Shown one piece after another: positions 1 to 21,035 of a stretch of 27,627 nucleotides of DNA; the first letter of the stretch is position 1, and each line of letters begins with the position of its first letter. The notes beneath the pieces were generated by a model. It was not told where the DNA came from and searched no databases. It saw only the letters and a program-made list of their open reading frames with translations. Source of the stretch: a virus. Its lineage: Duplodnaviria > Heunggongvirae > Uroviricota > Caudoviricetes. The stretch is from the IMG/VR virus record IMGVR_UViG_2531839130_000010; one strand, written 5' to 3'. The position numbers and the translations under genes were made by a program.

Positions 1-228
1 TTAGCCTTTTTTATTTTGATTTTTAGATTGTTCAATGTGATAATTTAATACTTCTCTCTTTGCCTCTTCATAGGTTAGCTCTCCATTGATTACCTTAGTT
101 TTTATTTCATTAAAAAATGAGGAGCCTTTGGGATCTTTACTTGATAAAAAAAGACTGGCTTCAGCTCTCCGAAAAGCTTCTTTCCTTGCTTCTATAGAAA
201 ATGAATTAGCAGGGTTATTTTTGTTCAT
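1..228 (-). CDS. Small hypothetical protein (75 aa); weak resemblance to YhfG/VbhA-type small antitoxins
   Basis: ORF track, complete with stop at 1-3. Charged helical sequence with a ..AEASL...INGELTYEEAKREVLNYH pattern loosely like Fic-antitoxin family, but the S-x-x-x-E-G inhibitory motif is not evident. Speculative. Confidence 0.3.
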   Translation of the reverse strand: MNKNNPANSFSIEARKEAFRRAEASLFLSSKDPKGSSFFNEIKTKVINGELTYEEAKREVLNYHIEQSKNQNKKG

Positions 229-1105
229 AAGTTGAAGTGCCTTTATTATTTATATTCAAGATGTTTTTATCTACAAGAGTTAGTCTTAACTCCGAGAATT
301 TATTTCCTGATATTTTATAACACTGATTTTCATTTTTTTCAATATAAAGAGATTTGCTTTCTGAGCTACCACATGTCGTAGATGTTCTTGCATCGAGAAA
401 AATAAACTTTTCTTGAAATCTTTCAATGTATTTCATTGCTGTCATGCTAATAATAAAAAGAGCAACTGACACAGCAAAAAGGGATAAGCCTGATACTAAA
501 CGATTAAAATTAAATTTCCTTTTAATAACTAATGAACTAGCTAAATTGACCATGTTATAGGGGACCATAATTATAAGTCCTATTAATATTATTTTTTCAG
601 GAAGATTGTTCACCTGTATATGATGTTGAGCCAAGCTTCCAATATATACTGAAATCATAGAGGATATTACTATTTTTGCTGGGGATACATCTCGCAAAAA
701 TATGTATATATAGACTGTAATTGCACAAATCATTGCCCCTATTGGAAATGAGAGCATGAAAGCATAAGCTAATGTCGAGTAATTAAGGTTTTCTGGGACT
801 ATACCATAAGCTATGTCAAGCTTAAACTTTGCGATCCATAAGCATACGGAATATGTAAAGCCAGTTACGCCCCATTTAACTACTGCATTATTAAATACTT
901 TATTTAATAAATCACGATATCCTATGTATACACTGGTTAATAAAGCTATAGATGATAGGAAAATTGGAGCGGCAATGTATATATTTTCTAGCCATAATGG
1001 GTTTTCTACAATCAAGTATCCAAAAGGTATTAAGTATATTATAGCCAATAGTTGAGGGTTGTTTAATTTTGGTGATGCATCAACTAACTTATTTTTATAA
1101 TCCAT
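215..1105 (-). CDS. Polytopic membrane protein of unknown function (296 aa)
   Basis: ORF track; several long hydrophobic segments (about 6 predicted TM helices by eye) and a polar C-terminal tail; AT-rich codon usage typical of island cargo. Confidence 0.5.
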   Translation of the reverse strand: MDYKNKLVDASPKLNNPQLLAIIYLIPFGYLIVENPLWLENIYIAAPIFLSSIALLTSVYIGYRDLLNKVFNNAVVKWGVTGFTYSVCLWIAKFKLDIAYGIVPENLNYSTLAYAFMLSFPIGAMICAITVYIYIFLRDVSPAKIVISSMISVYIGSLAQHHIQVNNLPEKIILIGLIIMVPYNMVNLASSLVIKRKFNFNRLVSGLSLFAVSVALFIISMTAMKYIERFQEKFIFLDARTSTTCGSSESKSLYIEKNENQCYKISGNKFSELRLTLVDKNILNINNKGTSTYEQK

Positions 1106-1114
1106 ACAACGTCC

Positions 1115-2188
1115 TTATTTCAACTTTAACGCCAAATCTTCAGCTTTTGGATGATAATACCGCATTAGCATTCTTGGATCTTTATGTCCTGTAATTTTGG
1201 TTAGTTCATGCATAGGGAAAATTTCAGCAAGTCGAGAAGTTGCTTCATGTCGAAGGTCATGAAATCTTAAATCTTTAAGGAAAGATTCATCACATAATGA
1301 GTTTGTTTTCTCGTATCGTTCTCTGGCTCGTTTTACAGCTCGGTCAAAAGCTCGGGTAATCGCGTCTGCACGCATATCAAAAACCTTATCAGCAGCTGGC
1401 TTAGAATGTTCCTTGAGACTGGACAGTATCGTAATGGCTTTCGTTGATAAAGGGACATCGCGGGCATTACCATTCTTAGTATCCGGCAGATGTGCAACTC
1501 GCCGATCAAGATCGATAAAGCGCCATCGAAGCTCTGCGATTTCGCTACGGCGCATGGCTGTCTCTAACGCCAGAAGAATGATTGCTGGCAATACTAATGA
1601 ATGTGTTGCGGCGATGATATGTTCGATCTCGTTGGCTATTTGCTTTCCTGACGTAACACCGGTTTTCTCAGAAACTACAGGCAGCGCTTCTAGGCGTCTG
1701 GTCCTGGAGTTCTTGGGTTGGGGTTTGCGAATGGCCTCTACGGGGTTCAGCAGGCTCTCCATGCCCCATTCTTTCCGCGAAACATTGAATACATGAGAAA
1801 GTAAGGCCAAACGCCTTAAAACGGTTGCAGGAGCATAGATTTTCAACCATTCATCTCTCAGCTTGGCGACATCGGCACTCCTGATGCTGGCCATATAGTT
1901 TTTCGCCAGCTGAGTGCCTTTTAGTATCCGCACCAATGATCGGTCTTGCACTGCCCCTTTTTTGTCGGGAACAATCTCTTTTTCATATCGCGTTAGGGCT
2001 TCATACAATGTCGTAGATTCCGCTTCGCTGCGGCTAAGCCAAACTCCTCTCGCCATTTCTGACTCGATCATTTTGGCCCAAGCTTCTGCTTCTACTTTGG
2101 TGTTAAAGGTTTTGGTTTGAGAGGGAAAACCACGTTTACGGATTTGAGCTTCCCATTGGTAGTTACCACGTTTGCGTATAGTCGCCAT
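1115..2188 (-). CDS. Tyrosine recombinase / phage-type integrase (about 357 aa from the ATG at 2188)
   Basis: C-terminal catalytic motifs FHDLRHEATS (HxxR) and LMRYYHP (catalytic Tyr); N-terminal arm-binding-like MATIRKRGNYQWEAQIRKRG. The track start at 2218 is a TTG; the ATG at 2188 is more plausible. Confidence 0.85.
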   Translation of the reverse strand: MATIRKRGNYQWEAQIRKRGFPSQTKTFNTKVEAEAWAKMIESEMARGVWLSRSEAESTTLYEALTRYEKEIVPDKKGAVQDRSLVRILKGTQLAKNYMASIRSADVAKLRDEWLKIYAPATVLRRLALLSHVFNVSRKEWGMESLLNPVEAIRKPQPKNSRTRRLEALPVVSEKTGVTSGKQIANEIEHIIAATHSLVLPAIILLALETAMRRSEIAELRWRFIDLDRRVAHLPDTKNGNARDVPLSTKAITILSSLKEHSKPAADKVFDMRADAITRAFDRAVKRARERYEKTNSLCDESFLKDLRFHDLRHEATSRLAEIFPMHELTKITGHKDPRMLMRYYHPKAEDLALKLK

Positions 2189-2276
2189 TTCTGTCTGATT
2201 CCTAACGAACTGTGGCAATATTGTGGCAAAAAATCCATTTAAATTCGATAGGTATTGATTTTACAAGATCAATTTA

Positions 2277-2325
2277 CGCATTCGTAATGCGAAGGTCGTA
2301 GGTTCGACTCCTATTATCGGCACCA
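2277..2325 (+). tRNA. 3' fragment (about 49 nt) of a tRNA-Thr(CGU) gene (thrW-like); pseudo-tRNA / att site
   Basis: Readable anticodon stem-loop cgca-TTCGTAA-tgcg (anticodon CGT), T-arm gtagg-TTCGACT-cctat, acceptor 3' strand tatcggc + A + CCA ending at 2325. No complementary 5' acceptor strand (gccgata) upstream, so it is a 3' fragment, not a complete gene. Confidence 0.7.
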
Positions 2326-3680: not shown

Positions 3681-4501
3681 ATATTTTAAAAATTAATAAT
3701 ACTGATTCTCTGCTCAGAGATTACTACCAGTTGGATGAAGCTTCAGAAAAAATTGGTTGTAGTGAAAAGGATATACTCTGGTTTGCCAGAGAACGAGATG
3801 TAGAGCTATGCATGGAATTCCATGATGATGAGTATGATGTTTCATGTGGTTTGAAGATTGATGGTCAAATAGATGAGTTCTTATCTAATCTGAAATATTT
3901 ACCACGAGATAGAAATGGCAATATTATGTTGTCAGACTTAAGTTCTATAAGAATCCCTGATGAAGATAATTTAATTGATAAAAATGGTTTTATTCGATGC
4001 TTCATATCCGGTTTATGGGCTGTTGATTATGAATATAAAGATCTGTTAGTTAAGCATGAGGGGCAACCGGATTCCTGGCCTATTCATTTTCTACTGGCGG
4101 GTACGCCTAATATAAATTGTAAGGTAATTCTTTATGTAAATTATGATGAAAAAGAAAATTATTATCTTTTTGAGGTTTTGTGGATTACAAAGGTACAGAT
4201 TCAAAAATTCATTGATATAGTCTTATGCGAACAAAAGCGGATAAAAAACGCCAATAAATATAAATCACAATCTGAGGCGCAAAAACAAAAACATGCTGTT
4301 CCTCGAGCTGAAATACTCATGGCTATTATTTCGCTCTATCATCGTGATATGAGGCTAAGAAGAGAGAGTCCAGCAGCGATAGCTGATTATCTTTTTCAAC
4401 ATGCCAGTGAGTTCTGGCCTAAGACCGGAGAACCGCCTTTGAGCTATGATACTGTTGTTAGTTTGCTACGTAGTTGCATGAAAAACATTAAGTTTAACTA
4501 A
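3677..4501 (+). CDS. Hypothetical protein (274 aa), AT-rich orphan cargo gene between int and alpA
   Basis: ORF track; ATG overlaps the int stop (ATGA); composition visibly more AT-rich than the flanking P4-like backbone; no motif I can recognise. Confidence 0.5.
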   Translation: MNILKINNTDSLLRDYYQLDEASEKIGCSEKDILWFARERDVELCMEFHDDEYDVSCGLKIDGQIDEFLSNLKYLPRDRNGNIMLSDLSSIRIPDEDNLIDKNGFIRCFISGLWAVDYEYKDLLVKHEGQPDSWPIHFLLAGTPNINCKVILYVNYDEKENYYLFEVLWITKVQIQKFIDIVLCEQKRIKNANKYKSQSEAQKQKHAVPRAEILMAIISLYHRDMRLRRESPAAIADYLFQHASEFWPKTGEPPLSYDTVVSLLRSCMKNIKFN

Positions 4502-4626
4502 ATATTAACAATTGTTGTGGCTAATGATTTTGAATTTTTTTCATTAGTCACATTTTTCTCATTTATAACCTATGTTTTAATTTTCCGTGTTGAAGCCAAT
4601 AGACTTAGATAAACGGAGAATGATGA

Positions 4627-4917
4627 ATGTTATCTAAACATGATAATACTACTTTGCAACGACCTTCAATGGATTCTCTGATCGATATGAAGTTTATTAC
4701 TTCCAATTGTTTATTAAGTGATAAATGGATTTATCGATTGATTTCTCTGAATCGCTTTCCAAAACCTATAAAAATAGGTCGGATGTCACGATGGCGCGCT
4801 GCTGATTATTATAAGTGGCGAGATGGGTTTGAAGAAAACTCAGGTCAACAGTTTGAGGGGATGAGAAATAAGGCAAGAGCAATTAATAAAGGGAATAGAT
4901 TATCACCTACTCCCTAA
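4627..4917 (+). CDS. alpA: AlpA-family phage transcriptional regulator / excisionase-like protein
   Basis: Core LLSDKWIYRLISLNRFPKPIKIGRMSRWRAADYYKWRD resembles AlpA-type HTH (RFPKP motif, conserved W after HTH); GGAG RBS 8 nt upstream of the ATG. Confidence 0.7.
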   Translation: MLSKHDNTTLQRPSMDSLIDMKFITSNCLLSDKWIYRLISLNRFPKPIKIGRMSRWRAADYYKWRDGFEENSGQQFEGMRNKARAINKGNRLSPTP

Positions 4918-4949
4918 GCCTTAATTGATAGTTAGTAATATTTAACTGA

Positions 4950-5123
4950 TTAGCCTTTAGGGTCAATCCCGCGTGATTGGAGTTCTTTGCGTAAAATTCT
5001 TTTAATCCAAGTTGCCAACGCGCTATCTCCATCTTTGCGCATTTCGTTTTCGAGTTGCAACCTAAAATCGTCGGTAAGACGCATTTGGAATGGTGGAGAA
5101 CGTTTCTCTTGTGGTGTTGACAT
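4950..5123 (-). CDS. Small ribbon-helix-helix (Arc/MetJ-like) DNA-binding protein, 57 aa (below ORF-track cutoff)
   Basis: Manual translation of minus strand: MSTPQEKRSPPFQMRLTDDFRLQLENEMRKDGDSALATWIKRILRKELQSRGIDPKG; beta-strand then two helices typical of RHH. The overlapping plus-strand ORF 4987-5187 looks non-protein-like. Confidence 0.5.
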   Translation of the reverse strand: MSTPQEKRSPPFQMRLTDDFRLQLENEMRKDGDSALATWIKRILRKELQSRGIDPKG

Positions 5124-5163
5124 GGTAATTACCCTAGAATATGATGACTACATGGTAATTACC
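5117..5163 (+). promoter_or_regulatory. Candidate sigma70 promoter (TTGACA-17 bp-TATGAT) with two copies of the palindrome GGTAATTACC (operator-like)
   Basis: TTGACA 5117-5122, TATGAT 5140-5145; 15-mer direct repeat (g/t)ACATGGTAATTACC at 5119-5133 and 5149-5163, each containing the perfect 10-bp palindrome GGTAATTACC, 30 bp apart; overlaps the start of the RHH gene. Confidence 0.45.
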
Positions 5164-5254
5164 ATTGTAAGTATAGTTCGCTTGTAAAAGCAATGCCCGA
5201 TTGTGCGGGAACACAAATCGGGCATTTAACCAACCGTTATAAGAGGTAACGAAG

Positions 5255-5431
5255 ATGGCTAAACAGAAGTGTACCTGGTTATTTGCGGCGATCAACCGCA
5301 GTCAACGCAATGCCCGTCCTGTGATGTTAAGGATCACCGCAGATAACGAGCGGTCAGCGCGGCGCAGACTTGCCCCGGACTATGTACTGAGCTTTGCCGG
5401 GCGCATTCCCTGCGGAGGTGAACATGCGTAA
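5255..5431 (+). CDS. Small protein (58 aa), possibly Icd/Ash-like P4-family protein
   Basis: Manual translation MAKQKCTWLFAAINRSQRNARPVMLRITADNERSARRRLAPDYVLSFAGRIPCGGEHA; AAGAGG RBS upstream. Family assignment is from memory only. Confidence 0.45.
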   Translation: MAKQKCTWLFAAINRSQRNARPVMLRITADNERSARRRLAPDYVLSFAGRIPCGGEHA

Positions 5432-5783
5432 TTATCCGCATCCCGGCGAACGCTGGCAGCATGAACGTGGCTGGACGGTCACGATTATCCGATTAATAGA
5501 AGCCTCGCCCTCTGTGGCGCTGGTTAATCCTGAATTCAGCTGTGAAGTGCTGATACGTCATGACAGCGACAACCAGCTTTCTTCCTGCCCTCTGGCATGG
5601 TTTGAACAGCGATATACGCGCCTGTTTGATGTACCACTCTTTAAGCCTGCACCAGCTCCTGCAGGCGGTAGTGGTTCCGGCCCGCTGACACTGCATCCGT
5701 CTGTGCTATTTATCCGCTGGCGGGAGCGTAGCATATGGCGTTCTGCTGAGCCTGATGACGGTCACTATTCAAAGTTTCTCTGA
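5424..5783 (+). CDS. Hypothetical P4-like protein (about 119 aa from the ATG at 5424)
   Basis: ORF track (5394 start is a TTG); ATG at 5424 has a GGAGGTG RBS and overlaps the upstream stop (ATGCGTAA), suggesting translational coupling. Confidence 0.5.
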   Translation: MRNYPHPGERWQHERGWTVTIIRLIEASPSVALVNPEFSCEVLIRHDSDNQLSSCPLAWFEQRYTRLFDVPLFKPAPAPAGGSGSGPLTLHPSVLFIRWRERSIWRSAEPDDGHYSKFL

Positions 5784-5814
5784 CACAATACCGCTGAAAA
5801 CGGAGTAATCCACG

Positions 5815-6099
5815 ATGAATATTTCAAACGGGCACAACGGTGCTCAGGGCCACACTTTGCCTGAAAAACACAATACCGGTGTTTTTGCCTATGGGTTGTC
5901 AGAGGACAGTTTCGGAAAGCTGACCCGCGCAAGAAATGCCTGCGACATGCTCCAGCTTCTCTTTTCTGAATACCCGTCTCAGGCCGGAGCACTGGACACT
6001 GGCTGTGCGCATGGTGTCGCCGCGCTGATGGAGTACCTGCTGGCAGATTTGACGGATATTGCACACAGCTGCGCACTGATTGAAGGAGGTGCCAGATGA
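5815..6099 (+). CDS. Hypothetical protein (94 aa)
   Basis: ORF track; GGAG RBS; stop overlaps next start. Confidence 0.5.
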   Translation: MNISNGHNGAQGHTLPEKHNTGVFAYGLSEDSFGKLTRARNACDMLQLLFSEYPSQAGALDTGCAHGVAALMEYLLADLTDIAHSCALIEGGAR

Positions 6100-6479
6100 A
6101 CCAGCCGCAGGTTTCCATTTTCCCGGCAGAAATGACCACCGCGCTTTACCGGCGGGCTATTGCTTCAGCATGGCGGCAGAAAATGCTGAACGAAACTGGC
6201 AGTGATCAGTATGGTCCGCACAGCCTGACGGTGGAGCGTATTGAAATGGCCATTGCGCTGCATATCGAGTGCGTACTGATTAACGAGTACGGCGAAGCAC
6301 AGGGCGCCGCTGCCGCGCTGGCACTGCTGACTGACATGCTGGAGCCGTCACTGCTGACCGCGCCGCCGGTACTGACCGCGCGCGGCTGTGAAGTGATGGC
6401 GGAGATGTACCGCACGCTTCCGGCGGCCTTTGATGACTTCTGCAGTACCGGTGTGACGTTGTATCAGGGGGAAGTATGA
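6096..6479 (+). CDS. Hypothetical protein (127 aa)
   Basis: ORF track; AGGAGG RBS; ATGA overlaps with neighbours on both sides (operon). Confidence 0.5.
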   Translation: MNQPQVSIFPAEMTTALYRRAIASAWRQKMLNETGSDQYGPHSLTVERIEMAIALHIECVLINEYGEAQGAAAALALLTDMLEPSLLTAPPVLTARGCEVMAEMYRTLPAAFDDFCSTGVTLYQGEV

Positions 6480-9148
6480 CAATACAGACGGTTACGCAGA
6501 TTTCAGCCGCCGCACGGGGGAAATGGCCCGTTATTCTCCAGATGCTGCGTATTGATGTACCTGAAAACGGCAGGCACGGTCCCTGCCCGAAATGTGGGGG
6601 CAAGGATCGTTTTCGCCTTGATGACCTTGACGGGCGCGGGACGTGGATCTGCAGCCAGTGTGGCAATGGTGACGGTCTGGATCTGGTTAAGCTCGTAACC
6701 GGTTACAGCATCAGAAAGGCTGCGCAGGAGGTGGCGCAGGTGCTTAATGTGCCGGATGTGCAGGAACTGCCTGTTAAGCCTGCCAGACAAAAAGCCCCTA
6801 AACGCGACATGGGTCTTACCGTGGCGGCGCTGATGAAAGAGAGCCACACGGGAGAAAGCGCCTATCTGACAGGAAAAGGGTTCGCCGGATACCCGGCCTC
6901 TCTGACCGGAAGCGTGCAGCATATCAGCGGTAAGGATTTTCCTGCCGGTTCCCTGCTGTTACCACTCACGACCAACACCGGAGCCGTGACTGGTGCACAG
7001 CTTATCGCCCCGACGGGTGAAAAAAGCATACTGCCCGGCAGCACGATGAAAGGCGCGTTTGTGTCGCTCAGCCCGTTACCGTCTGAACCACCGGTACAGG
7101 TGGTGATTACCGAAGGTTACGCTACGGCGCTGACGGTAAGTCAGCTCACTGCCGGATGCGTAGTGGCTGCCATATCTGCGGGCAACCTGCCCAATGTGGC
7201 GCAGTCGCTGCGGGCACGCTGGCCTGAGGTAAAAATTATCATCGCCGGTGATAACGATTTTCAGGACGGAGGTGAGAATCCCGGCAGAGCCTTTGCTGAA
7301 CGGGCGGCAAAAGCTGTTGGCGGCTGGATGACGCTGCCACCAGGAGAGATTAAGGCTGACTGGAATGACTTTCATCGGGAGCACGGTATTACCCGTGCCC
7401 GTGAAGCCTTTCGCAACGGTCTGGTACTGTGCGGGGAAGGCCGCACGCAACTGCCGCACGGGTTCCGTCTTACCCAGGAATATCTCTGGTATGAAAAGCA
7501 GGTACAGCGCAACGGTGAGACGGAGATCCAGAACGTCAAAATATGCAGCCCGCTGCGCGTGACGGCAATCACCTGCGATGCCGATGGCGGTAACTTCGGA
7601 CGACTGCTGGAATGGGAAGATACGTGGGGTGAGTGTCGCCGCTGGGCGATGCCGATGGAAATGCTGAGCGGCAGTGGTGAGGAACTGCGCCGGGTACTGC
7701 TGGTTAACGGGCTGTCTTATATCAGCACCACCGGTGAGGCACGCGCACGCCTGATGGAATATATCTCACTGTGTAAACCGGAACGCCGCGTGACCTGCGT
7801 CAGTCGTACTGGCTGGCATGGTCAGGTTTACGTCCTGCAGGATGAGGTCAGCGGTGAAGGTGCAGAGGGTGTCATTCTCCAGACCACTTCCGTGCAGGGG
7901 CGTGATTTCCGCGTGTCGGGCACAACAGAGGAATGGCGGGAGCATGTATCCCGCTACTGTACCGGCAACTCCCGCGTGGCATTTGCTGTCAGCCTGGCCT
8001 TTGCTGCACCACTGTTACGGCTGGTTGGTATGGACGGCGGCGGCTACCACCTCAAAGGGGAATCGACAGACGGTAAGACCACCACCATGAAAGCGGCAAC
8101 CTCCGTCTGCGGCGGGCCTGACTACTGGCAGACATGGCGGGCCACCGGCAACGCGCTGGAGGGATGCGCCAGCCGCCGCAACGATGCCGCCATGATGCTT
8201 GATGAGATCCGGGAAGTTGACGGACGCGAGGCAGGCAATATCGCCTACATGCTGGCAAACGGTCAGGGCAAGGGCCGTGCCGGTACGGACGGTGAGCTGC
8301 GTACCCGTAAGCAGTGGCGCCTGTTGTTCTTTTCAACTGGCGAGTTGTCTCTGACCGAACATGCGGCAAAGGCCGGTGAGCGTACTTTTGCCGGGATGGA
8401 AGTCAGGATGATCCAGATCCCCAGCGATTCCGGGAAGTTTGGCGTTTTTGAGGAGCTGCACGGCTTCGACAGCGGCAAGGCTCTGGCAGAGCATCTTGAA
8501 TGGGCCACGTCCTGCTACTACGGTTCGCCGTTCCGGGAGTGGCTGAAAGCACTGACCGCTGATCTTAACGGACTAACGGCACAGGCAAAATCGCTGATGA
8601 AGGAATATGCTGCCGCCCTGACTCCGAAAGATGCAGGCAATCAGGTGGGCCGGGCTGTGAACCGCTTTGCTCTGGTGGCGATGGCAGGTGAACTGGCAAC
8701 CCGTCTGGGTATCACCGGCTGGCCTGAGGGTGAAGCACTGCGGGCAACCCGCGTCTGCCTGAACGCATGGCTGAAAGATCGCGGGCACACCGCCAATCAG
8801 GAAGATATCGCCGCACTGGAGCAGGTTCGCAGTTTCTTCACCGCGAATCAGTACAGCCGCTTTGCAGACTGGTATGACGAGCGCAACCGCCCCGGCAATA
8901 TGGTGGGCTGGCGCAGGGTGGAGAAAGGCAGTACCGCGCAGGGCACGGAAGCTGTCACTACGTTCTATGTCATGCCGTCCGGCTGGAAAGAAATCTGCAG
9001 GGGATTTGACCCGCGCAAGGTGGCGCGTCTGTGCGCAGATCGTGGATACCTGCTGCCCTCCACTGATGGCAAACTCCAGACAACCATTCGCCCGCCAGAG
9101 ATGAATCCCCGCAGGCTCTATGTCTTCAACAGCGAGGTGCCGGGTTAA
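6476..9148 (+). CDS. P4 alpha-type primase-helicase (890 aa)
   Basis: N-terminal zinc-binding CPKCGGKD...CSQCG; Toprim-like VVITEGYATA ... IIIAGDNDFQDGGENPG; C-terminal helicase Walker A GESTDGKTT and Walker B-like MMLDEIRE. Confidence 0.9.
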   Translation: MTIQTVTQISAAARGKWPVILQMLRIDVPENGRHGPCPKCGGKDRFRLDDLDGRGTWICSQCGNGDGLDLVKLVTGYSIRKAAQEVAQVLNVPDVQELPVKPARQKAPKRDMGLTVAALMKESHTGESAYLTGKGFAGYPASLTGSVQHISGKDFPAGSLLLPLTTNTGAVTGAQLIAPTGEKSILPGSTMKGAFVSLSPLPSEPPVQVVITEGYATALTVSQLTAGCVVAAISAGNLPNVAQSLRARWPEVKIIIAGDNDFQDGGENPGRAFAERAAKAVGGWMTLPPGEIKADWNDFHREHGITRAREAFRNGLVLCGEGRTQLPHGFRLTQEYLWYEKQVQRNGETEIQNVKICSPLRVTAITCDADGGNFGRLLEWEDTWGECRRWAMPMEMLSGSGEELRRVLLVNGLSYISTTGEARARLMEYISLCKPERRVTCVSRTGWHGQVYVLQDEVSGEGAEGVILQTTSVQGRDFRVSGTTEEWREHVSRYCTGNSRVAFAVSLAFAAPLLRLVGMDGGGYHLKGESTDGKTTTMKAATSVCGGPDYWQTWRATGNALEGCASRRNDAAMMLDEIREVDGREAGNIAYMLANGQGKGRAGTDGELRTRKQWRLLFFSTGELSLTEHAAKAGERTFAGMEVRMIQIPSDSGKFGVFEELHGFDSGKALAEHLEWATSCYYGSPFREWLKALTADLNGLTAQAKSLMKEYAAALTPKDAGNQVGRAVNRFALVAMAGELATRLGITGWPEGEALRATRVCLNAWLKDRGHTANQEDIAALEQVRSFFTANQYSRFADWYDERNRPGNMVGWRRVEKGSTAQGTEAVTTFYVMPSGWKEICRGFDPRKVARLCADRGYLLPSTDGKLQTTIRPPEMNPRRLYVFNSEVPG

Positions 9149-11512: not shown

Positions 11513-12790
11513 ATGAACCGTCAGCCGTTTACTTCAGCAGCACTTAAACGAAACTTAAGTGAAAGTGAGAAGGCTTATTATTTTAAAAAAAATAATGTTG
11601 CTGAGTTAGAATCATTAATTAGTGATGCCGTTTTAATTGCTAATGAGAATTTTCGCTCTGGTGTGAGTGTAAAGAAACTAAATATTAAGGGACGCTGCGT
11701 TTACACTGCTTCATGTTTGAAGGAAAAAATAATACTTAGACATTGCAATGCAAATTTAAAATGCCTTGAATCGCTTCGTCCCAAACAACGAAATACAATA
11801 ATTAGTGAGCTTAAAATTTATTTGGAAGAAGGTACTCCATTCAAAATATATCGTTTGGATATAAAGTCTTTCTTTGAATCAATTGATTTACCGCAGCTTT
11901 TTCAGCTCTTACATAACGAAACACGACTGTCTAGACATACAAAAAATTTGCTAGAATGGTATCTTAAATCGTGTGAAAGGCTTCACTCTTCGAAAGGATT
12001 ACCTAGAGGGTTAGAAATTAGTCCTATGTTATCAGAATTGTACTTGGCACAATTTGATAATAGTATTCATAGGCATCCAGAAGTATTTTATTATTCAAGA
12101 TTTGTAGATGATATGGTAATCGTTTCAAGTGGTTGTGAATGTGAAGCGTCCTTTATGGAATTTATACAAGATGTATTACCAAAGGGATTGGCTTTAAATA
12201 AAAATAAATTAAAAATATCTCCATGCATACCAAAGAGAAGTAAGGGTTTAAATAAACAGGATAAATTGCTTCATGAATTTGACTTTCTAGGGTACTCGTT
12301 TTCTATAATAGACACACCTTTGAGCAAAGATGGTGAGATTAATAGCTGTTACAGAAAGGTTGTTGTTAATTTATCTAAATCTCGCCTGAAGAAAATTAAA
12401 ACAAGAATAGCTAGGTCTTTCTACTCTTATCATATTAATGGTGATTTTAAACTATTGCTAGACAGGATTTCTTTTTTGACTAGTAACAGGGATTTAAATC
12501 GCAAAATAAAATCGTTAAGTTCTTTAGAAAAAAGCAAGATAAGTACAGGTATTTATTACAGTAATGCGAAGTTAGATGTTGACTCCATATCCCTAAAAAA
12601 ATTAGATGACTTTTTGCTATATTGTGTGCAATCTAATACTGGGCGTTTGAATAGTGTTGCAAAAAAACCTTTTAATTTGAAGCAAAAAAAAGAACTGCTA
12701 AGAAATAGTTTTAGAAAAGGCTTTGTGGATAGAGTATATAGAAAGTATAACTTTAAGCGCTATACTGAGATTACAAAAATATGGTTATAA
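11513..12790 (+). CDS. Reverse transcriptase, 425 aa (UG3-like; first gene of a DRT type 3-like pair)
   Basis: RT motifs read directly: YRLDIKSFFESI (motif 1/2), GLPRGLEISPMLSELYL (motif 4), RFVDDMVIV (catalytic motif 5), FLGYSF (motif 7). Strongly AT-rich versus the P4 backbone; stop overlaps next gene start. Confidence 0.8.
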   Translation: MNRQPFTSAALKRNLSESEKAYYFKKNNVAELESLISDAVLIANENFRSGVSVKKLNIKGRCVYTASCLKEKIILRHCNANLKCLESLRPKQRNTIISELKIYLEEGTPFKIYRLDIKSFFESIDLPQLFQLLHNETRLSRHTKNLLEWYLKSCERLHSSKGLPRGLEISPMLSELYLAQFDNSIHRHPEVFYYSRFVDDMVIVSSGCECEASFMEFIQDVLPKGLALNKNKLKISPCIPKRSKGLNKQDKLLHEFDFLGYSFSIIDTPLSKDGEINSCYRKVVVNLSKSRLKKIKTRIARSFYSYHINGDFKLLLDRISFLTSNRDLNRKIKSLSSLEKSKISTGIYYSNAKLDVDSISLKKLDDFLLYCVQSNTGRLNSVAKKPFNLKQKKELLRNSFRKGFVDRVYRKYNFKRYTEITKIWL

Positions 12791-14799
12791 AGAAAAACAT
12801 TAAACTTGATAAGAAAGATTATCTCAGGGCTTTACTATGTGATACACTGCCCGGTGATTGTCCAATTATTTTTTCAAATGATGGCTTATATATAAACTTA
12901 ACAGAATATGATAGAGTTTGTAATGATTTGTTACATTTTACTCCGGTTTCTTCTTTCTTAAAAAAAATAGTTAACCCTAATTTAGACTCTTCTATTAGTG
13001 TCGCAGATCGCCACCGAGAAAAGAAGAAACAAAGCTCCCCATTTGGCTATTGTATAGTAAAAGATGCCTTTAGCCAAAGACATCTTTCTTTAATTCACCC
13101 AAGATCTCAAATTAATTATTCGGAATTTTATAAAACATACTCATCCGTTATCACATTAAATACTTTAAAAAGTAATTTTTCTATTCGCTACCCACGTAAG
13201 GTCGCTAACTCTTTCTTTTTATATGAAAATAATGCTTTGGAAAAATATAAAGGGGAAGATATCGAAACAACAAAGGATGAGTTAATGAGGAAATATTCAT
13301 CCTCTTATTTTAGTTATGGCGGTTTCAACAGGATATATAAACTATTTCAAAGTAAGATGTTTATTGAGCTTGAGAAAAGATTCTCGGTGATGTGGATGTT
13401 AGATGTATCACATTGTTTTGATAGCATATATACGCATTCGGTTTCTTGGGCATTAAAAAATAAATCATATATAAAAAAACATGTTAAACACAGCAATCAA
13501 TTTGGACAAGAATTAGATACACTGATGCAACGTAGCAATAATAATGAAACAAATGGAATACCTATTGGTTCAGAGTTTAGCAGGGTTTTTGCAGAATTAA
13601 TATTTCAGCGAATTGATTGCAATATTGAGTCATGCCTTCTTAGTGAACATGGATGGGTTAATAATAAAGATTATGTTATATTGAGATATGTAGATGATTT
13701 TATTGTTTTTTGTAATGGTGAGTCAAGTGCCGAAGTTATTACAAAAATAATTAATGTGAAGTTAAATGAATATAATCTACAATTAAATGTAAACAAGCTT
13801 AAGAAGTATTCTAGGCCATTTTGCACTAGCAAGACAAGTTTGATTGTCAAAGTTAATGAATTAATTCGCAATTTAGAAATTAAACTGTATGAAAAACGTG
13901 ATAGTGGCTTTACTTTAAATAAAATAAGAAGTAAGCATGATTTAAAGATATATGTAATTAATCATGTCAAGTCTATATGCATTGAAAATCAAGTGTCTTA
14001 TTCTGATGTTTCATCATATATAATATCATCTCTTTCCAAAAGATTAATATCAATAATTGATATATTACGAGTTCAAGAAAATGAAGATGATGTAGATGTA
14101 AAAAAAAGGATTAAGGACTTAATTTTCACAATAACCGATATTATGTTGTTCTTTTTCAGTGTTAACCCAACTGTTTCATCATCTTATAAATTATCAAAGA
14201 CAATGGTTGTTGTTAATAACTATTTGAATGAAATATCTAGTGACTATAGTAGTATTTTTATGACTACGTTAGTGAATGCTGCGGAAAACATTAATTTTGG
14301 TGAGAATGATAATGGGCTGTTTATTGATGATTTCATTTCAATTGAAAAGGTTAATTTAATCTTGGCTGCTACTTTTTTTGGAGATAATTATCTTATAAGT
14401 GACAGTTTTTTTCATGGAGTTATACATAAAAAGAAATTGGACTACTTTACTATAATCTCACTGCTATTCTATTTTAGAAACAGAAGATCATTCCGAAAAT
14501 TGAAGTGTATAATAGAGGGTGAAATAAAGGAAATATTAAGTTCTAATATGGATTTGCTGCAATCATCGGAAAAGGCACATTTATTTTTGGATGTCATGTC
14601 ATGTCCATTTGTCTCAATAGAGACAAGGCGTTTTTTATATAGAAAATATCTCAAGAGCTATGAGCCAAAGCTGAACAGAAGTCATCTGGAGATTGAGAAT
14701 GATTTGCAATCTCTGCTTCAAACATATTGGTTTGTCAAGTGGGATGAGTTAGATATTGTGAAAATGATTGAGAAAAAAGAATTGAAAGAAAGCTATTAA
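12781..14799 (+). CDS. Reverse transcriptase, 672 aa (UG8-like; second gene of a DRT type 3-like pair)
   Basis: RT motifs: MLDVSHCFDSI (motif 2), GIPIGSEFSRVFAELIF (motif 4), RYVDDFIVF (catalytic motif 5), LQLNVNKLKKY (motif 6); long N- and C-terminal extensions; 10-bp overlap with the upstream RT gene. Confidence 0.8.
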   Translation: MVIKKNIKLDKKDYLRALLCDTLPGDCPIIFSNDGLYINLTEYDRVCNDLLHFTPVSSFLKKIVNPNLDSSISVADRHREKKKQSSPFGYCIVKDAFSQRHLSLIHPRSQINYSEFYKTYSSVITLNTLKSNFSIRYPRKVANSFFLYENNALEKYKGEDIETTKDELMRKYSSSYFSYGGFNRIYKLFQSKMFIELEKRFSVMWMLDVSHCFDSIYTHSVSWALKNKSYIKKHVKHSNQFGQELDTLMQRSNNNETNGIPIGSEFSRVFAELIFQRIDCNIESCLLSEHGWVNNKDYVILRYVDDFIVFCNGESSAEVITKIINVKLNEYNLQLNVNKLKKYSRPFCTSKTSLIVKVNELIRNLEIKLYEKRDSGFTLNKIRSKHDLKIYVINHVKSICIENQVSYSDVSSYIISSLSKRLISIIDILRVQENEDDVDVKKRIKDLIFTITDIMLFFFSVNPTVSSSYKLSKTMVVVNNYLNEISSDYSSIFMTTLVNAAENINFGENDNGLFIDDFISIEKVNLILAATFFGDNYLISDSFFHGVIHKKKLDYFTIISLLFYFRNRRSFRKLKCIIEGEIKEILSSNMDLLQSSEKAHLFLDVMSCPFVSIETRRFLYRKYLKSYEPKLNRSHLEIENDLQSLLQTYWFVKWDELDIVKMIEKKELKESY

Positions 14800-15191: not shown

Positions 15192-15218
15192 GTTCGACTC
15201 CTATTATCGGCACCATCA
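15192..15218 (+). repeat. attR core of the P4-like element: second copy of the 27-bp tRNA-Thr 3'-end repeat
   Basis: Exact copy of 2302-2328; no tRNA body upstream of it. Confidence 0.8.
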
Positions 15219-15821
15219 AGAAAATCAATAACTTAGCTTAACTTCTCTAAGAAATTGTATCTTCTGTTATCACTTACAAACGCCTATACGTTGTTATGGG
15301 CTTTGGTAGTGTAACACGTATGGGCGAGTAGTTCCCAGGCTCAACCTCGTAACAAGTTCCTTTGAAGCTGGAAGACGTGCCACCGTCTCTAAACCTTCTA
15401 CCAAAACTCTTAGCAAGATGTTCCACACCTGGCGCGGTGTCCAATGATGCTACACGTCGTGAGACGTTGCAGAGGATAAACAGGCTAAATGATGGGAAGA
15501 GTTTTAAGTGCAATAGTGGATTAAAGCCCACCTCTTCAAAACCTAACTTGATCGGGAAAGAATCAAGCTCTAGCACGGTTTCGTCCACCGGAGTACAACG
15601 GGTGCCTGATAAGAGAAGAACTGCTAAGACTTCATAGCTTTTGTGAAAAAGCCCTTTTTAGTGGATACGCCTACGGCGCTTATTTTTTGGTATAACCATC
15701 AAAGGCGCTTTATGGCTCCTATTGTCTTGAAAATGTATCTTTACTTGTATTGTGTTTTATGCGTAGCCTTCCTGTGTAGTATGTAACTTGTTCATTTTCA
15801 TATGAATACAGAGGCAACACG

Positions 15822-15974
15822 ATGAAAAACATTGCAGCTATCAAACGTAATAACCGCAAGATTCACGCTCGTAAGTTCCTGTCTACGCCAGAAGGAAAAG
15901 CCTGGCTAGAGCGTAAACAGCGAGAGAACGAAGAAAGAAAACTCCTTAGTGAGTTGAAATGGCTTAAGGATTGA
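15822..15974 (+). CDS. Small basic hypothetical protein (50 aa; below ORF-track cutoff)
   Basis: Manual translation MKNIAAIKRNNRKIHARKFLSTPEGKAWLERKQRENEERKLLSELKWLKD; GAGG-like RBS about 9 nt upstream. Confidence 0.3.
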   Translation: MKNIAAIKRNNRKIHARKFLSTPEGKAWLERKQRENEERKLLSELKWLKD

Positions 15975-16539
15975 ACCACCAGTAGGCGCATAACACATCC
16001 AGCGATCAAAGATGTGTTTATGCACCTGATAGTGAAATTATTAAAGTCGTTTAGTTAACATCGCCATTGCTTGAGCAATAATTGCAACAGCGTCCATCTC
16101 TTCACTGGAAGCGATGCAAATGCGGTAACTAATAGCCACAACGAATACATCAATAACGAGAAAGTGAATAGTGTGAAGATGTTTTGAAAGTAAATGCATA
16201 ACTTCCTCCGGTTTTACGATAGGAAGATTAGAACATGCATTAAATGATGTTACAAGGGTGGTAATTTACCCTAATAGTCTACTATTCACCTCAATCTACG
16301 TCAACCAATATTTGATGTAGATTTAATTTTCTTTTAAAAACAATATGTTGCAATTTGTTGAATTTTGGGGTTAGGTTGTTTTTTGAACGTTTTCATCAAG
16401 TGTAAAGATACGTTTAGCCTTCATAGTGAGTTCAGTTACTGTCTTTTTCTCTGAAATCGGCGCAGACGTGATCAATGTTTAACGCGAAGATCAGCGGCGT
16501 CAGGTCCACGCAGCGACAATTCTCAAATATCAGGAGGCA

Positions 16540-17097
16540 TTACGCTTCCTGCTCTTTCTTGATACGTTGCACCGTCTGTGTGCTGACACTGAAATCTTTT
16601 GCTACGCTCCGAATTGATCCACCATTCGCGAGAGCGGCAACAATTCCCGCTCGATCAATTGCTTTTCCATTACCACGTTTTGCTATACGTCCAGCGGCCT
16701 TAGCTGCGGCGATCCCCTCACGCTGCCGCTCAAGCATCATTTCACGTTCCATTTGTGCCACTGCTGCAAGCACTGTGAGCATCATATTCCCTGCGGGAGA
16801 GTTCTTCCCTGTCTTAAAGTCTTCTTTATGGAAATGCACAGACACGCCGCGCTCTGTTAATTGCTCAACCGTTGCCAGAAGGTCGGCTGTATTACGACAA
16901 AGGCGATCAATACTATGGACGTGTAACACGTCACCCTCCCGCACATAGTTCATCATTGCCTCAAACTGTGGGCGCTGAGTGTTCTTGCCTGACGCTTTAT
17001 CTTCAAAGACTTTATCAAGAGTTACTCCAGCTAATTGACGGTCTGTGTTTTGTTGCACAGTCGATACCCTAATGTATCCAATATTAGCCATTTTCAT
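16540..17097 (-). CDS. Serine recombinase (resolvase / DNA invertase family), 185 aa
   Basis: N-terminal catalytic signature IGYIRVSTVQQNTDRQ (active-site Ser), resolvase core, C-terminal HTH GGSIRSVAKDFSVSTQTVQRIKK; AAGGA RBS. Confidence 0.85.
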   Translation of the reverse strand: MKMANIGYIRVSTVQQNTDRQLAGVTLDKVFEDKASGKNTQRPQFEAMMNYVREGDVLHVHSIDRLCRNTADLLATVEQLTERGVSVHFHKEDFKTGKNSPAGNMMLTVLAAVAQMEREMMLERQREGIAAAKAAGRIAKRGNGKAIDRAGIVAALANGGSIRSVAKDFSVSTQTVQRIKKEQEA

Positions 17098-17655
17098 TTT
17101 CCTTCTGTGTTGATTTGTGTGTAGTGATTATTGATCGTGTTGATTAGGTGTGTAAAGGACTTTTTTCACTACGAAATTCGAAGGTTTTTAGTGTGGTGAT
17201 TTAGCCTGCTTTATCACTACACGTCTTGCATGAGAATCATGTAGTTACATTTTGGTAAAATTAGCAAGCTATTAAATAGTGTGTTTATTTTGAAAAAATA
17301 ATTTTTTGTTGCATTAAAGGAAACTTGTTCGACAAATAATAGATTGATTTTTAATCAACAATTTCTGATAGTGCTCTGTAAGCCGTATTACACAAGGCTT
17401 TGCGAAAGTGATGTAAAAGTGAAGAAAGCTAACATTGCACTTTTTAAGCTACTTTTCATTGGATTTTTACGTAGGAATTACACAGGGATTAATCATCAAT
17501 TACATTGAATTTAAGCCTGTTTTAGATGTTTAATTTTGGTAGCAAGAAACACTTTTAGAAGATCATTGCACAGATGCTATGTGATGATTGGATGTAACGG
17601 TAGGTCACTGTGAGCTACCCCTATCAAGTCTGATACCCGATAAGTATAAATAACA

Positions 17656-17756
17656 CCTGGGAAATGAGTTCCGATCTATTTAGGAAATAACCGTGGAAGT
17701 GGTTTCCTACCTACCTAGGAAATGAGTTCCTATCACCTAGGAAATGATTTCCGACA
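17656..17756. repeat. Cluster of near-palindromic direct repeats CCT(A/G)GGAAATGA(G/T)TTCC (3 copies) plus a related dyad; candidate protein-binding sites
   Basis: Copies at 17656-17674, 17714-17734, 17736-17756; dyad taggaaa-N15-tttccta at 17681-17709. Core GGAAAT-N-ATTTCC is palindromic. Confidence 0.5.
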
Positions 17757-19875: not shown

Positions 19876-19904
19876 TTGACAAAAGCCTTTAGTTATGGTA
19901 AAGT
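19876..19904 (+). promoter_or_regulatory. Candidate sigma70 promoter with extended -10 (TTGACA-N17-TAAAGT, TG at -15/-14)
   Basis: TTGACA 19876-19881, 17-bp spacer, TGgTAAAGT 19896-19904; about 120 bp upstream of the first small gene. Confidence 0.4.
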
Positions 19905-21026: not shown

Positions 21027-21035
21027 GGAGAATAA

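What the first reader, a model, noticed from the sequence alone, without database searches (positions are those of the whole stretch)
4950..5163. Unannotated 57-aa RHH regulator whose start lies inside a twin-palindrome operator/promoter
A minus-strand ORF below the track cutoff encodes an Arc-like ribbon-helix-helix protein. Its ATG (5121-5123) sits inside a 15-bp direct repeat containing the perfect palindrome GGTAATTACC, which occurs twice 30 bp apart and overlaps a good plus-strand promoter (TTGACA-17-TATGAT) that would drive the Icd-like-to-primase operon. This looks like a repressor/operator switch controlling replication genes, in place of the RNA-based immunity of canonical P4.
Basis: seen in the sequence. 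Interest (0 to 1): 0.5.

Follow-up and report, generated by a model that had tools for sequence, protein, structure and literature searches.

The report
Small repressor switch of a phage satellite
A conserved 57-residue Arc-like protein gene sits back-to-back with the replication operon of an E. coli P4-like phage satellite; with its two palindromic binding sites and a previously unnoticed SymR-like antisense RNA it forms a compact on/off cassette, which may be the repressor not yet identified for Gram-negative phage satellites.

Summary
A 57-aa minus-strand ORF (4950-5123) abuts GGTAATTACC, which occurs exactly twice (5124-5133, 5154-5163). One copy lies in the spacer of an 11/12 sigma-70 promoter (TTGACA 5117-5122, TATGAT 5140-5145); the other lies at its predicted start site.

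The ORF is a real gene. It keeps 56-57 aa across Enterobacterales, Pasteurellaceae and Orbaceae, and median dN/dS is 0.08. It is Arc-like by profile: 39 of 41 relatives hit PHROG 228.

In about 60 loci the two palindromes keep their positions. Their sequence changes together with the predicted DNA-reading strand of the protein, in at least four classes. Near-identical satellites carry swapped protein-plus-operator modules.

Between the operators and the Icd-like gene lies a roughly 80-nt cis-antisense RNA (5260 to about 5183, minus strand). It has strong covariation and is a distant relative of SymR. The P4 C4/CI RNA is indeed absent, but the switch is not RNA-free.

The same cassette occurs in an O157:H7 capsid-forming PICI and upstream of a plasmid BREX island. 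I found no published description. All function is inferred, and no structure search confirmed the fold.

The parts
4950..5123 (-). rhh: 57-aa Arc-like ribbon-helix-helix candidate repressor (MSTPQEKRSPPFQMRLTDDFRLQLENEMRKDGDSALATWIKRILRKELQSRGIDPKG)
   Evidence: ORF listed. 85 homologues, nearly all 56-57 aa. 39/41 hit PHROG 228 'Arc-like repressor' and 13/41 hit Pfam Arc PF03869. Median dN/dS 0.083. Annotated as hypothetical protein WP_001605077.1.
5124..5133 (.). O1, proximal operator palindrome GGTAATTACC. It abuts the rhh ATG and lies inside the 17-bp spacer of the operon promoter.
   Evidence: Position conserved at -10..-1 of the rhh start in nearly all loci, and the sequence class follows the protein class.
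5152..5165 (.). O2, distal operator. Core GGTAATTACC is 5154-5163, extended to the palindrome ATGGTAATTACCAT. It covers the predicted start sites of both divergent promoters.
   Evidence: Present 27-35 bp from O1 in related loci and often slightly degenerate (GGTCATTACC, GGTCGTTACC).
5117..5145 (+). P_op, promoter of the Icd-like-to-primase operon: -35 TTGACA 5117-5122 (overlaps rhh codons 1-2), 17-nt spacer, -10 TATGAT 5140-5145. Predicted start near 5152.
   Evidence: 11/12 match. TTGACA-17/18-TAnnnT scores 9-11/12 in 42 of the 43 loci printed before the script stopped, with the -35 at the same place in the rhh ORF in 42 of 43. The start site is inferred.
5164..5193 (-). P_rhh, candidate autoregulated promoter of rhh: -35 TTGCTT 5193-5188, 18-nt spacer, -10 TACAAT 5169-5164. 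Predicted start near 5157, inside O2.
   Evidence: Read from the sequence. It scores 8/12, below the scan threshold. The same TTGYTT-17/18-TAcAAT geometry ends right at the distal palindrome in most loci. Inferred.
5179..5260 (-). SymR-like cis-antisense sRNA. The 5' end AGCCAU starts 3 nt inside the Icd-like ORF. Hairpin 1 carries the anti-Shine-Dalgarno CCUC in its loop. Then UGGUUA, a GC-rich terminator hairpin (5226-5192) and a U-tract (5189-5186).
   Evidence: Rfam SymR 31.6 bits, below gathering 61. 38-sequence alignment: 93.8% of cells paired, 14 pairs with compensatory changes, 0/500 shuffles. Strand test 817/871 vs 726/871 canonical pairs. Own model R1 finds the annotated E. coli K-12 symR at its exact 5' end (32.9 bits, E 1e-5).
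5268..5295 (-). Candidate promoter of the antisense RNA inside the Icd-like coding sequence: -35 TTGATC 5295-5290, 16-nt spacer, -10 TACACT 5273-5268. The +1 is A5260.
   Evidence: Read. A TAnnnT -10 box lies exactly 7 nt upstream of AGCCAT in 41 of 42 distinct loci, inside non-homologous first genes.
5255..5431 (+). First operon gene, Icd-like (58 aa). Its Shine-Dalgarno sequence AGAGG is at 5242-5246. It is the predicted target of the antisense RNA.
   Evidence: NCBIfam NF033153, 84 bits. RefSeq annotation.
5424..9148 (+). Rest of the operon driven by P_op: orf119, orf94, a DUF5375 protein and the P4 alpha-type primase (6476-9148).
   Evidence: Gene order matches P4 ORF106 (DUF5375) followed by alpha.
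4890..4915 (-). Terminator-like hairpin with a T-rich tail downstream of the rhh stop. It overlaps the 3' end of the convergent alpA/vis-like gene. No plus-strand terminator was detected between alpA and rhh.
4627..4917 (+). alpA/vis-like gene, convergent with rhh. It is a candidate source of read-through transcription across rhh into the operon (speculative).
   Evidence: Pfam Phage_AlpA E=3.7e-4, just below cut-off. PHROG excisionase/regulator families. Annotation.

Best explanation
The region 4950-5295 is one compact regulatory cassette with two layers.

Layer 1, protein. The 57-aa protein is an Arc/MetJ-type ribbon-helix-helix repressor. A dimer binds each 10-bp palindrome.
- O1 sits in the spacer between the -35 and -10 of P_op, the only strong promoter ahead of the Icd-like-to-primase operon.
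- O2 sits over the predicted start sites of P_op and of the protein's own weak promoter.
- Occupancy therefore shuts off the satellite's early/replication operon and limits the repressor's own synthesis (negative autoregulation).

Layer 2, RNA. An antisense RNA of about 80 nt is made from a promoter inside the first operon gene.
- It starts 3 nt past that gene's start codon and presents an anti-Shine-Dalgarno loop.
- It ends at a terminator whose tail doubles as the -35 of P_rhh.
- It should block translation of leaky operon transcripts, as SymR does for symE. The first gene product here is a predicted cell-division inhibitor.

Protein and operators evolve as a unit. There are at least four specificity classes, and they can be swapped between otherwise near-identical satellites, like heteroimmune immunity regions.

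What is shown and what is inferred:
- Shown: the sequence anatomy, conservation, co-variation, RNA structure covariation and strand asymmetry.
- Inferred: DNA binding, repression, start sites, RNA expression and action.
- Unknown: what lifts repression.
For: Real protein:
- 85 homologues of constant length.
- Median dN/dS 0.083, with synonymous sites saturated.

Arc-like:
- 39/41 hit PHROG 228 (best 2e-7) and 13/41 hit Pfam Arc (best 1.5e-4).
- hhalign puts RSPPFQMRL in register with Arc's KMPQFNLRW.
- The AlphaFold monomer has two helices after an extended N-terminus.

Operators:
- Only two perfect copies in the window.
- Positions are fixed relative to the rhh ATG and to a conserved TTGACA-17/18-TAnnnT promoter.
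- The palindromes stay 100% conserved between loci whose synonymous sites are saturated.

Co-variation of strand motif and palindrome:
- SP[PQ][FY]QMR[LM] goes with GGTAATTACC (28 of 30 loci).
- SPQFPMRL goes with GGTATATACC (8/8).
- T[DN]QYQ[IL]RL goes with TGTAATTACA (12/14).
- NPPFQFRL goes with TGTGTAATTACACA or variants (4/5).

Module swap:
- L059 and L060 share a 98-100% identical Icd-like protein and a 98% identical primase with the window. Their RHH is only 54% identical and their operator differs.
- The pairing holds without int or alpA nearby on plasmid pEFER.
- In EcCICFT073 a different small protein comes with different repeats.

RNA.
Against: - There is no experimental evidence for expression, DNA binding or repression.
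- The window protein itself has no Pfam or NCBIfam hit.
- The protein/operator co-variation is confounded by shared ancestry and by co-inheritance of neighbouring genes.
- Operator spacing varies (27, 30, 31, 34, 35 bp), so no fixed cooperative geometry can be claimed.
- The distal site is degenerate in many loci.
- P_rhh scores only 8/12, and the antisense promoter also 8/12.
- The Rfam SymR score is about half the gathering threshold.
Confidence: 0.7

Rival explanations
1. The cassette is mainly a toxin-antitoxin-like addiction or stress module rather than a satellite life-cycle switch. A toxic first gene (SymE-type or Icd-like) would be held down by an antisense RNA (type I style). The RHH would play the part of the antitoxin-type transcription factor, and the replication genes would simply be hitch-hiking downstream.
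For: - The RNA is related to SymR.
- In L046 the first gene is a bona fide SymE-family toxin (PF08845, 73 bits).
- Kawano et al. 2007 (PMC1891008, section 13) saw SymE-family genes next to RHH transcription factors and primase-helicase genes.
- The cassette also sits ahead of a BREX island with no replication genes.
Against: - rhh is monocistronic and divergent from the toxic gene, not co-transcribed with it.
- In Xenorhabdus the first gene is the primase itself.
- In most loci the operon continues into replication genes beside an integrase.
- The two readings are not mutually exclusive.
Confidence: 0.15
2. The RHH acts as a plasmid-style copy-number controller during the replicative phase, rather than as a lysogeny-type master repressor. 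This would resemble CopG plus antisense RNA II of pMV158, or CopB plus CopA of R1.
For: It has the same logic as those plasmid circuits (established knowledge, recalled, not tested here). A small autoregulated RHH repressor sits on the rep-operon promoter, and a countertranscript lies over the translation start of the first rep-operon gene. The operon encodes the primase/replicase.
Against: - In the genomes examined the element is integrated.
- The cassette also precedes non-replication operons.
- Nothing here separates steady-state silencing from copy-number feedback.
Confidence: 0.1
3. The palindromes are bound by some other factor, such as the AlpA/Vis-like protein, integrase or a host protein, and the small protein does something else.
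For: In the module-swap case (L059/L060 versus the window) the integrase and alpA side changes along with rhh, so that comparison alone cannot say which protein reads the sites.
Against: - The palindrome class follows the RHH class in contexts that lack int and alpA nearby (pEFER).
- It also follows the RHH class across unrelated element types: P4-like, capsid-forming PICI and Pasteurella Pmp8.
- A 10-bp perfect palindrome fits a symmetric RHH dimer.
Confidence: 0.04
4. The ORF and repeats are a chance arrangement, or only promoter architecture, with no dedicated regulator.
For: Short AT-rich palindromes are common in promoters.
Against: The ORF length, the protein sequence and the twin sites are conserved across several bacterial families. 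There are concerted changes between protein and sites, and dN/dS is 0.08.
Confidence: 0.01

Closest known systems
Arc and Mnt repressors of the phage P22 immI region (Arc/MetJ ribbon-helix-helix superfamily)
   Same: - A protein of about 55 aa with a strand-helix-helix pattern. The motif P-[PQ]-[FY]-Q-M-R-L aligns with Arc's P-Q-F-N-L-R-W.
- Short symmetric operators overlap divergent promoters, with predicted autoregulation.
- Profile hits to Arc-like families.
   Different: - The window protein's own matches are weak (PHROG 228 E=0.003; no Pfam or NCBIfam hit).
- The operators are two separate 10-bp perfect palindromes 27-35 bp apart, not one 21-bp operator bound by a tetramer.
- The context is a satellite early operon.
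- The fold is not confirmed.
SymR/SymE type I toxin-antitoxin locus of E. coli K-12 (Rfam RF01809; Kawano et al. 2007, PMC1891008)
   Same: - A cis-antisense RNA starts 3 nt inside the target ORF.
- It has the same three-helix layout and shared motifs (AGYCAU, UUGUGRUUAG, GUGUU..GCAC).
- The searches find each other reciprocally.
- A repressor site lies just 3' of the RNA gene: a LexA box in K-12 (my reading), the RHH operators here.
- One locus (L046) actually has a SymE toxin as target.
   Different: - The score is half Rfam's gathering threshold.
- The target here is an Icd-like gene heading a replication operon.
- Control is by a dedicated RHH rather than LexA.
- Here the RNA ends in a clear terminator with a U-tract.
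Canonical P4 immunity (CI RNA of the C4 family plus seqA/isrK-like target, P_LE/P_LL, Vis)
   Same: - Same place in the genome: between the vis/alpA-type gene and the early operon that ends in DUF5375 and the alpha primase.
- Same job: keeping the replication operon silent.
   Different: - P4 has C4 (74.9 bits) and isrK (60.8 bits) sense-strand RNAs and no RHH.
- The window has neither RNA. It carries a divergent protein gene and a cis-antisense RNA instead.
Plasmid replication control by a small repressor plus a countertranscript (pMV158 CopG + RNA II; R1 CopB + CopA)
   Same: Works alike on paper. An autoregulated RHH sits on the rep-operon promoter, and an antisense RNA covers the translation start of the first rep-operon gene. 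This is recalled knowledge and was not tested here.
   Different: No homology was tested or claimed. CopG is co-transcribed with repB, whereas rhh here is divergent. The element here is integrated.
Stl/Rpr master repressors of Gram-positive PICIs
   Same: A repressor gene divergent from the xis/pri/rep operon of a phage satellite. Fillol-Salom et al. 2018 (PMC6092414) describe this layout, and state that a global repressor in Gram-negative PICIs is unclear.
   Different: The proteins are unrelated (Stl proteins are much larger). No helper-encoded anti-repressor is known here. The integrase is not co-oriented with rhh.

Membership tests
Arc/MetJ ribbon-helix-helix superfamily | Sequence-profile match to Arc-like RHH families | tested here: met
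   39/41 family members hit PHROG 228 'Arc-like repressor' (best 2.2e-7). 13/41 hit Pfam Arc PF03869 (best 1.5e-4). The window protein itself hits only PHROG 228 at E=0.003, with no Pfam or NCBIfam hit. hhalign against P22 Arc gives E=0.0014 in the expected register.
Arc/MetJ ribbon-helix-helix superfamily | Strand-helix-helix fold forming an intertwined dimer | tested here: inconclusive
Arc/MetJ ribbon-helix-helix superfamily | Sequence-specific DNA binding through the N-terminal beta-sheet to short repeated or symmetric sites | not testable with these tools
   Indirect only. The predicted strand motif co-varies with the palindrome class.
SymR antisense RNA (Rfam RF01809) | Score at or above Rfam's gathering threshold (61 bits) | tested here: not met
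   31.6 bits, E=0.0017 over 2.2 kb and 0.00027 over 351 nt. No hit at gathering.
SymR antisense RNA (Rfam RF01809) | cis-antisense geometry (5' end 3 nt inside the target ORF) and the three-helix structure | tested here: met
   The Rfam alignment spans the full model and starts at 5260, 3 nt past the ATG at 5255-5257. The structure is supported by covariation and a strand test. Model R1, built without SymR, hits the annotated K-12 symR from its first base.
P4-type RNA immunity (C4/CI RNA with isrK-like target) | Presence of a C4-family RNA in the early-operon leader | tested here: not met
   No C4 or isrK match in the window at gathering or at E<=0.1. The positive control on P4 gives C4 74.9 bits and isrK 60.8 bits.
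P4-like satellite | Integrase, AlpA/Vis-like regulator, alpha-type primase, sid/psu/delta-type genes | tested here: met
   RefSeq annotation of the near-identical element (100-99.9% over the 901-bp query) lists integrase, HTH/AlpA, TOPRIM-DUF927 primase, polarity suppression protein and Ogr/Delta zinc finger. A DRT3 hotspot lies beside tRNA-Thr. The DUF5375-primase order is as in P4.
Type II toxin-antitoxin RHH antitoxin | RHH gene co-transcribed with a cognate toxin gene | tested here: not met
   rhh is a single gene. The next gene downstream is the convergent alpA, and the toxic candidate (Icd-like) is divergent.
Satellite master repressor (functional class, as Stl/Rpr) | Loss of the protein derepresses the island, and a helper function relieves it | not testable with these tools
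   Only position and promoter overlap are known.

The most novel reading that the evidence does not exclude
This RHH, and analogous tiny divergent genes such as the YlcI/YnfO-type one in EcCICFT073, is the master repressor that has not been identified for Gram-negative phage satellites (P4-like elements lacking CI RNA, PICIs and capsid-forming PICIs).

It would work together with a SymR-family antisense RNA as a portable, heteroimmune 'immunity cassette'. It would be overridden when helper-activated transcription from the convergent alpA/vis gene reads through rhh into the replication operon.
Probability: 0.35. Interest if true: 0.75.

Novelty: new variant of a known kind. Interest (0 to 1): 0.6.

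Why it matters
How Gram-negative phage satellites stay silent is an acknowledged gap. Fillol-Salom et al. 2018 (PMC6092414) state that a global repressor in Gram-negative PICIs is unclear. They found AlpA to be an activator and called the difference from Gram-positive islands a mystery.

A conserved, often unannotated 57-aa repressor candidate sits on the replication-operon promoter, and its operator specificity can be predicted. That makes the question directly testable. The predicted specificity classes also suggest a way for co-resident or tandem satellites to be regulated independently.

The work also extends the SymR antisense RNA family from one chromosomal toxin locus to an RNA found in every related mobile-element locus examined. 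The same cassette lies upstream of a plasmid BREX defence island, which points to an unrecognised regulatory layer there.

Tried and rejected
- Profile against PDB sequences: top hits were designed helical repeat proteins, which are compositional artefacts. The only RHH hit was AmrZ, at a non-significant E=1.1.
- Pfam and NCBIfam on the single window protein gave nothing.
- The search for P4-type RNAs (C4, isrK) in the window was negative.
- The R1 model on P4 was negative.
- Literature: searches for P4-like + satellite + ribbon-helix-helix, for the operator sequences as literal strings, and for satellite repressor terms found no description of this module.
- Considered and rejected: an RHH antitoxin of a type II TA pair (no co-transcribed toxin), and a chance palindrome (comparative data).
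- The 1-mismatch sites at 2158 and 7102 were not counted as operators. Two extra sites against 0.76 expected is not significant.
- One literature query failed on a too-short term. One script stopped before printing its last rows, and one search covered them.

Full report
**1. The observation**

The sequence is as described.
- The minus-strand ORF 4950-5123 encodes 57 aa. Its ATG is the complement of 5121-5123.
- GGTAATTACC is a perfect palindrome at 5124-5133 and 5154-5163.
- The surrounding direct repeat ACATGGTAATTACC is 14 nt, not 15, with 30 bp start to start.
- TTGACA (5117-5122), 17 nt, TATGAT (5140-5145) scores 11/12 and is the best promoter-like site in the region.
- The perfect 10-mer occurs nowhere else in the 27.6-kb window. 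With up to 1 mismatch there are 4 sites against 0.76 expected.

The ORF is annotated in some RefSeq genomes as hypothetical protein WP_001605077.1.

**2. Context**

The window carries an E. coli P4-like satellite. Its order is:
- integrase
- a 274-aa ORF
- an AlpA/Vis-like gene (4627-4917, plus strand)
- the small ORF (minus strand)
- an Icd-like gene (5255-5431), two ORFs, a DUF5375 protein and an alpha-type primase (6476-9148)
- sid/psu/delta-type genes
- a DRT3 defence hotspot

In other strains a near-identical element lies next to tRNA-Thr. The DUF5375-primase order matches P4.

**3. The ORF is a real, Arc-like gene**

- 85 homologues were found. Nearly all are 56-57 aa and span Enterobacterales, Pasteurellaceae, Orbaceae and Oceanisphaera/Oceanimonas.
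- Median dN/dS is 0.083 over 27 pairs, with synonymous sites saturated.
- 39 of 41 members hit PHROG 228 'Arc-like repressor' (best 2e-7). 13 of 41 hit Pfam Arc (best 1.5e-4).
- hhalign aligns RSPPFQMRLTDDFRLQLENEMRKDGDS with Arc KMPQFNLRWPREVLDLVRKVAEENGRS (E=0.0014).

**4. The palindromes behave as this protein's operators**

I fetched 68 loci encoding relatives.
- In almost all, one palindrome abuts the start codon and a second lies 27-35 bp upstream.
- The rhh start ATGTCAA is the complement of TTGACAT. The nearly invariant Met-Ser start of the protein therefore doubles as the -35 of the divergent promoter.
- A TAnnnT -10 follows at 17-18 nt in essentially every locus, scoring 9-11/12.

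The palindrome sequence changes in concert at both sites and both half-sites, together with the predicted DNA-reading strand:

| Strand motif | Operator | Loci |
|---|---|---|
| SP[PQ][FY]QMR[LM] | GGTAATTACC | 28 of 30 |
| SPQFPMRL | GGTATATACC | 8 of 8 |
| T[DN]QYQ[IL]RL | TGTAATTACA | 12 of 14 |
| S[KQT]QYQxRL (Pasteurellaceae-type) | TGTAATTACA | 3 of 3 |
| NPPFQFRL | TGTGTAATTACACA or variants | 4 of 5 |

Further points tie the sites to this protein:
- Pantoea stewartii and Enterobacter soli (L059, L060) carry an operon whose Icd-like protein is 98-100% and whose primase is 98% identical to the window's. Their RHH is only 54% identical, and their operator and integrase differ. The homology break falls inside the antisense RNA gene, near 5240.
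- The NPPFQFRL type with its operator also occurs on plasmid pEFER with no integrase or alpA beside it.
- In EcCICFT073 a different small protein (YlcI/YnfO family, with an RHH-like pattern by my reading) occupies the same position. It comes with different repeats, GTGGGCCACACCT twice.

These cases argue that the sites belong to the small protein rather than to AlpA or integrase. The association is still confounded by phylogeny, and it is not a binding assay.

**5. Promoter geometry (inferred)**

- O1 fills the P_op spacer.
- O2 covers about +2 to +11 of P_op, whose predicted start is near 5152.
- O2 also abuts the -10 (TACAAT, 5169-5164) of a weak rhh promoter, TTGCTT-18-TACAAT, 8/12. Its predicted start near 5157 lies inside O2.

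Binding would therefore repress both promoters. Operator spacing is not constant between clades, so I do not claim cooperative binding.

**6.

A sub-threshold Rfam hit to SymR lies at 5260-5189 on the minus strand. It scores 31.6 bits against a gathering threshold of 61, with E=0.0017.

In nearly all the related loci examined, whatever the first gene of the divergent operon is, the rhh strand keeps the same order of elements:
- a TAnnnT box
- exactly 7 nt (41 of 42 distinct loci)
- AGCCAT, the anti-start codon
- a hairpin with CCUC, the anti-Shine-Dalgarno sequence, in its loop
- UGGUUAGA
- a GC-rich hairpin
- a U-tract

The first gene varies between loci. It is Icd-like in many, the primase in Xenorhabdus, an unknown 113-116-aa family in others, and a SymE toxin in L046.

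Evidence for the RNA:
- On 38 sequences the three-helix structure is 93.8% paired. 14 pairs show compensatory changes, and no shuffle of 500 reached this. Slid controls pair at 33-45%.
- G-U pairs make the structure much better on the rhh strand: 817 of 871 canonical cells (113 G-U) against 726 of 871 (22 G-U) on the operon strand. Together with the U-tract, this says the RNA is made on the rhh strand.
- A covariance model built only from these loci finds the annotated E. coli K-12 symR from its first base (32.9 bits, E=1e-5).
- In K-12 a sequence I read as the LexA box lies just 3' of symR. That is where the RHH operators lie here.
- The UUG after the terminator hairpin is nearly invariant and coincides with the -35 of P_rhh.

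P4 itself has C4 and isrK RNAs and neither the RHH nor this RNA. The window has no C4 or isrK.

**7. Most likely mechanism**

RHH dimers on O1 and O2 silence the early/replication operon and autoregulate rhh. The antisense RNA blocks translation of the first cistron on leaky transcripts.

What relieves repression is unknown. I offer one speculation. No plus-strand terminator was detected between the convergent alpA gene and rhh, whereas a minus-strand terminator follows rhh. AlpA is reported as the activator of Gram-negative PICIs (PMC6092414) and as an antiterminator in Pseudomonas (PMC7969949, abstract seen). Read-through from alpA could therefore both silence rhh and express the operon. As I recall it, P4 P_LL transcription through vis works in a similar way.

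**8. Distribution**

- Variants of the 311-bp module occur in 443 of 5426 complete E. coli genomes at 80% coverage or more.
- In O157:H7 ATCC 43889 the module lies in a capsid-forming PICI with identical twin operators 30 bp apart. There the ORF is not annotated, and PGAP calls an Icd-like pseudogene on the other strand.
- The RNA model also hits this element and EcCICFT073.
- The module is present in the 15-kb 'Pasteurella phage Pmp8'.
- It is present upstream of brxR in the pEFER BREX island.

**9. What is known**

- Kawano et al. 2007 noted SymE-family genes next to RHH factors and primase-helicase genes. They treated protein and sRNA regulators as alternatives.
- Fillol-Salom et al. 2018 wrote that a global repressor in Gram-negative PICIs is unclear.
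- Mageeney et al. 2023 reported C4/isrK immunity RNAs in the PICI 'dynamic zone' and did not mention an RHH or SymR.
- The pEFER BrxR paper does not mention the module.

I found no description of this cassette. The library searched is incomplete.

**10. Verdict**

The parts are of known kinds: an Arc-type repressor with promoter-overlapping operators, and a SymR-type antisense RNA. Their combination as a portable, specificity-switching immunity cassette of Gram-negative satellites appears to be new. It bears on an open question in the field. Everything functional remains inferred.

Noticed in passing
window 5179-5295 (minus strand): A conserved SymR-like cis-antisense RNA with its own promoter inside the Icd-like gene. 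It is not part of the original finding and lies adjacent to the operators in nearly all the related loci examined.
   Followed up: yes
L059 and L060, about 4860-5190, compared with window 4940-5270: Pantoea stewartii and Enterobacter soli carry an operon whose Icd-like protein is 98-100% and whose primase is 98% identical to the window's. Their RHH is only 54% identical, and the operator (TGTGTAATTACACA) and integrase differ. The homology break falls inside the antisense RNA gene, so this looks like an immunity-module swap.
   Followed up: partly
L071 (plasmid pEFER, NC_011743.1) 3865-4180: The NPPFQFRL-type RHH, its operator and the SymR-like RNA (84 bits) sit upstream of the brxR-brxA-brxB-brxC BREX island. 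About 100 Klebsiella, E. coli and Salmonella plasmids carry this RHH variant. PGAP starts the first ORF at 3777 rather than at the conserved ATGGCT at 3871.
   Followed up: partly
L077 (E. coli CFT073, EcCICFT073) 8243-8870: The prototype Gram-negative PICI has two small minus-strand genes between alpA and the Icd-like gene. One is a 59-aa YlcI/YnfO-family protein with an RHH-like pattern. There are also two GTGGGCCACACCT repeats 23 bp apart and the SymR-like RNA (51.9 bits). The design is the same, with a different small protein and different sites.
   Followed up: partly
L075 (E. coli O157:H7 ATCC 43889) 5001-5310: A capsid-forming PICI carries an intact rhh (5174 to 5001) with identical twin operators. 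The gene is not annotated, and PGAP instead calls an Icd-like pseudogene on the opposite strand (4558-5151).
   Followed up: partly
L023-L028 (Photorhabdus), rhh copies near 3776 and 4992: There are two tandem copies of the rhh/operator/antisense cassette about 1.2 kb apart. In the downstream copy the terminator hairpin of the RNA is degenerate.
   Followed up: no
L005, L013, L014, L018, L025 (Xenorhabdus), upstream of about 4870: The primase (812-924 aa) starts directly at the conserved ATGGCT. Its N-terminus (MADTQHNQTRPKF) resembles that of Icd-like proteins in other loci, as if the first gene had been fused to the primase while the leader and antisense promoter were kept.
   Followed up: no
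window 1-2300 and 15200-27627: ARAGORN finds no tRNA gene in the window, although the near-identical satellite sits beside tRNA-Thr in other strains. The flanks carry another integrase-type ORF (1115-2218, minus strand) and genes of a second integrative element. The window therefore looks like a tandem array of elements. In other strains the defence hotspot holds a retron St85 in place of DRT3 (11513-14799).
   Followed up: partly
window 2158-2167 and 7102-7111: One-mismatch copies of the operator: GGTAGTTACC upstream of the integrase gene and GGTGATTACC inside the primase gene. The count is not significantly above chance, and their conservation was not checked.
   Followed up: no
window 5255-5431; L073 (P4) 8168-8584: PHROGs label the Icd-like families 'transcriptional repressor'. 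The P4 record carries the same label on its old 'cI gene product' ORF, which spans the region of the C4/CI RNA hit (8420-8507). The label looks like a historical carry-over rather than evidence that Icd-like proteins repress transcription (my inference).
   Followed up: no
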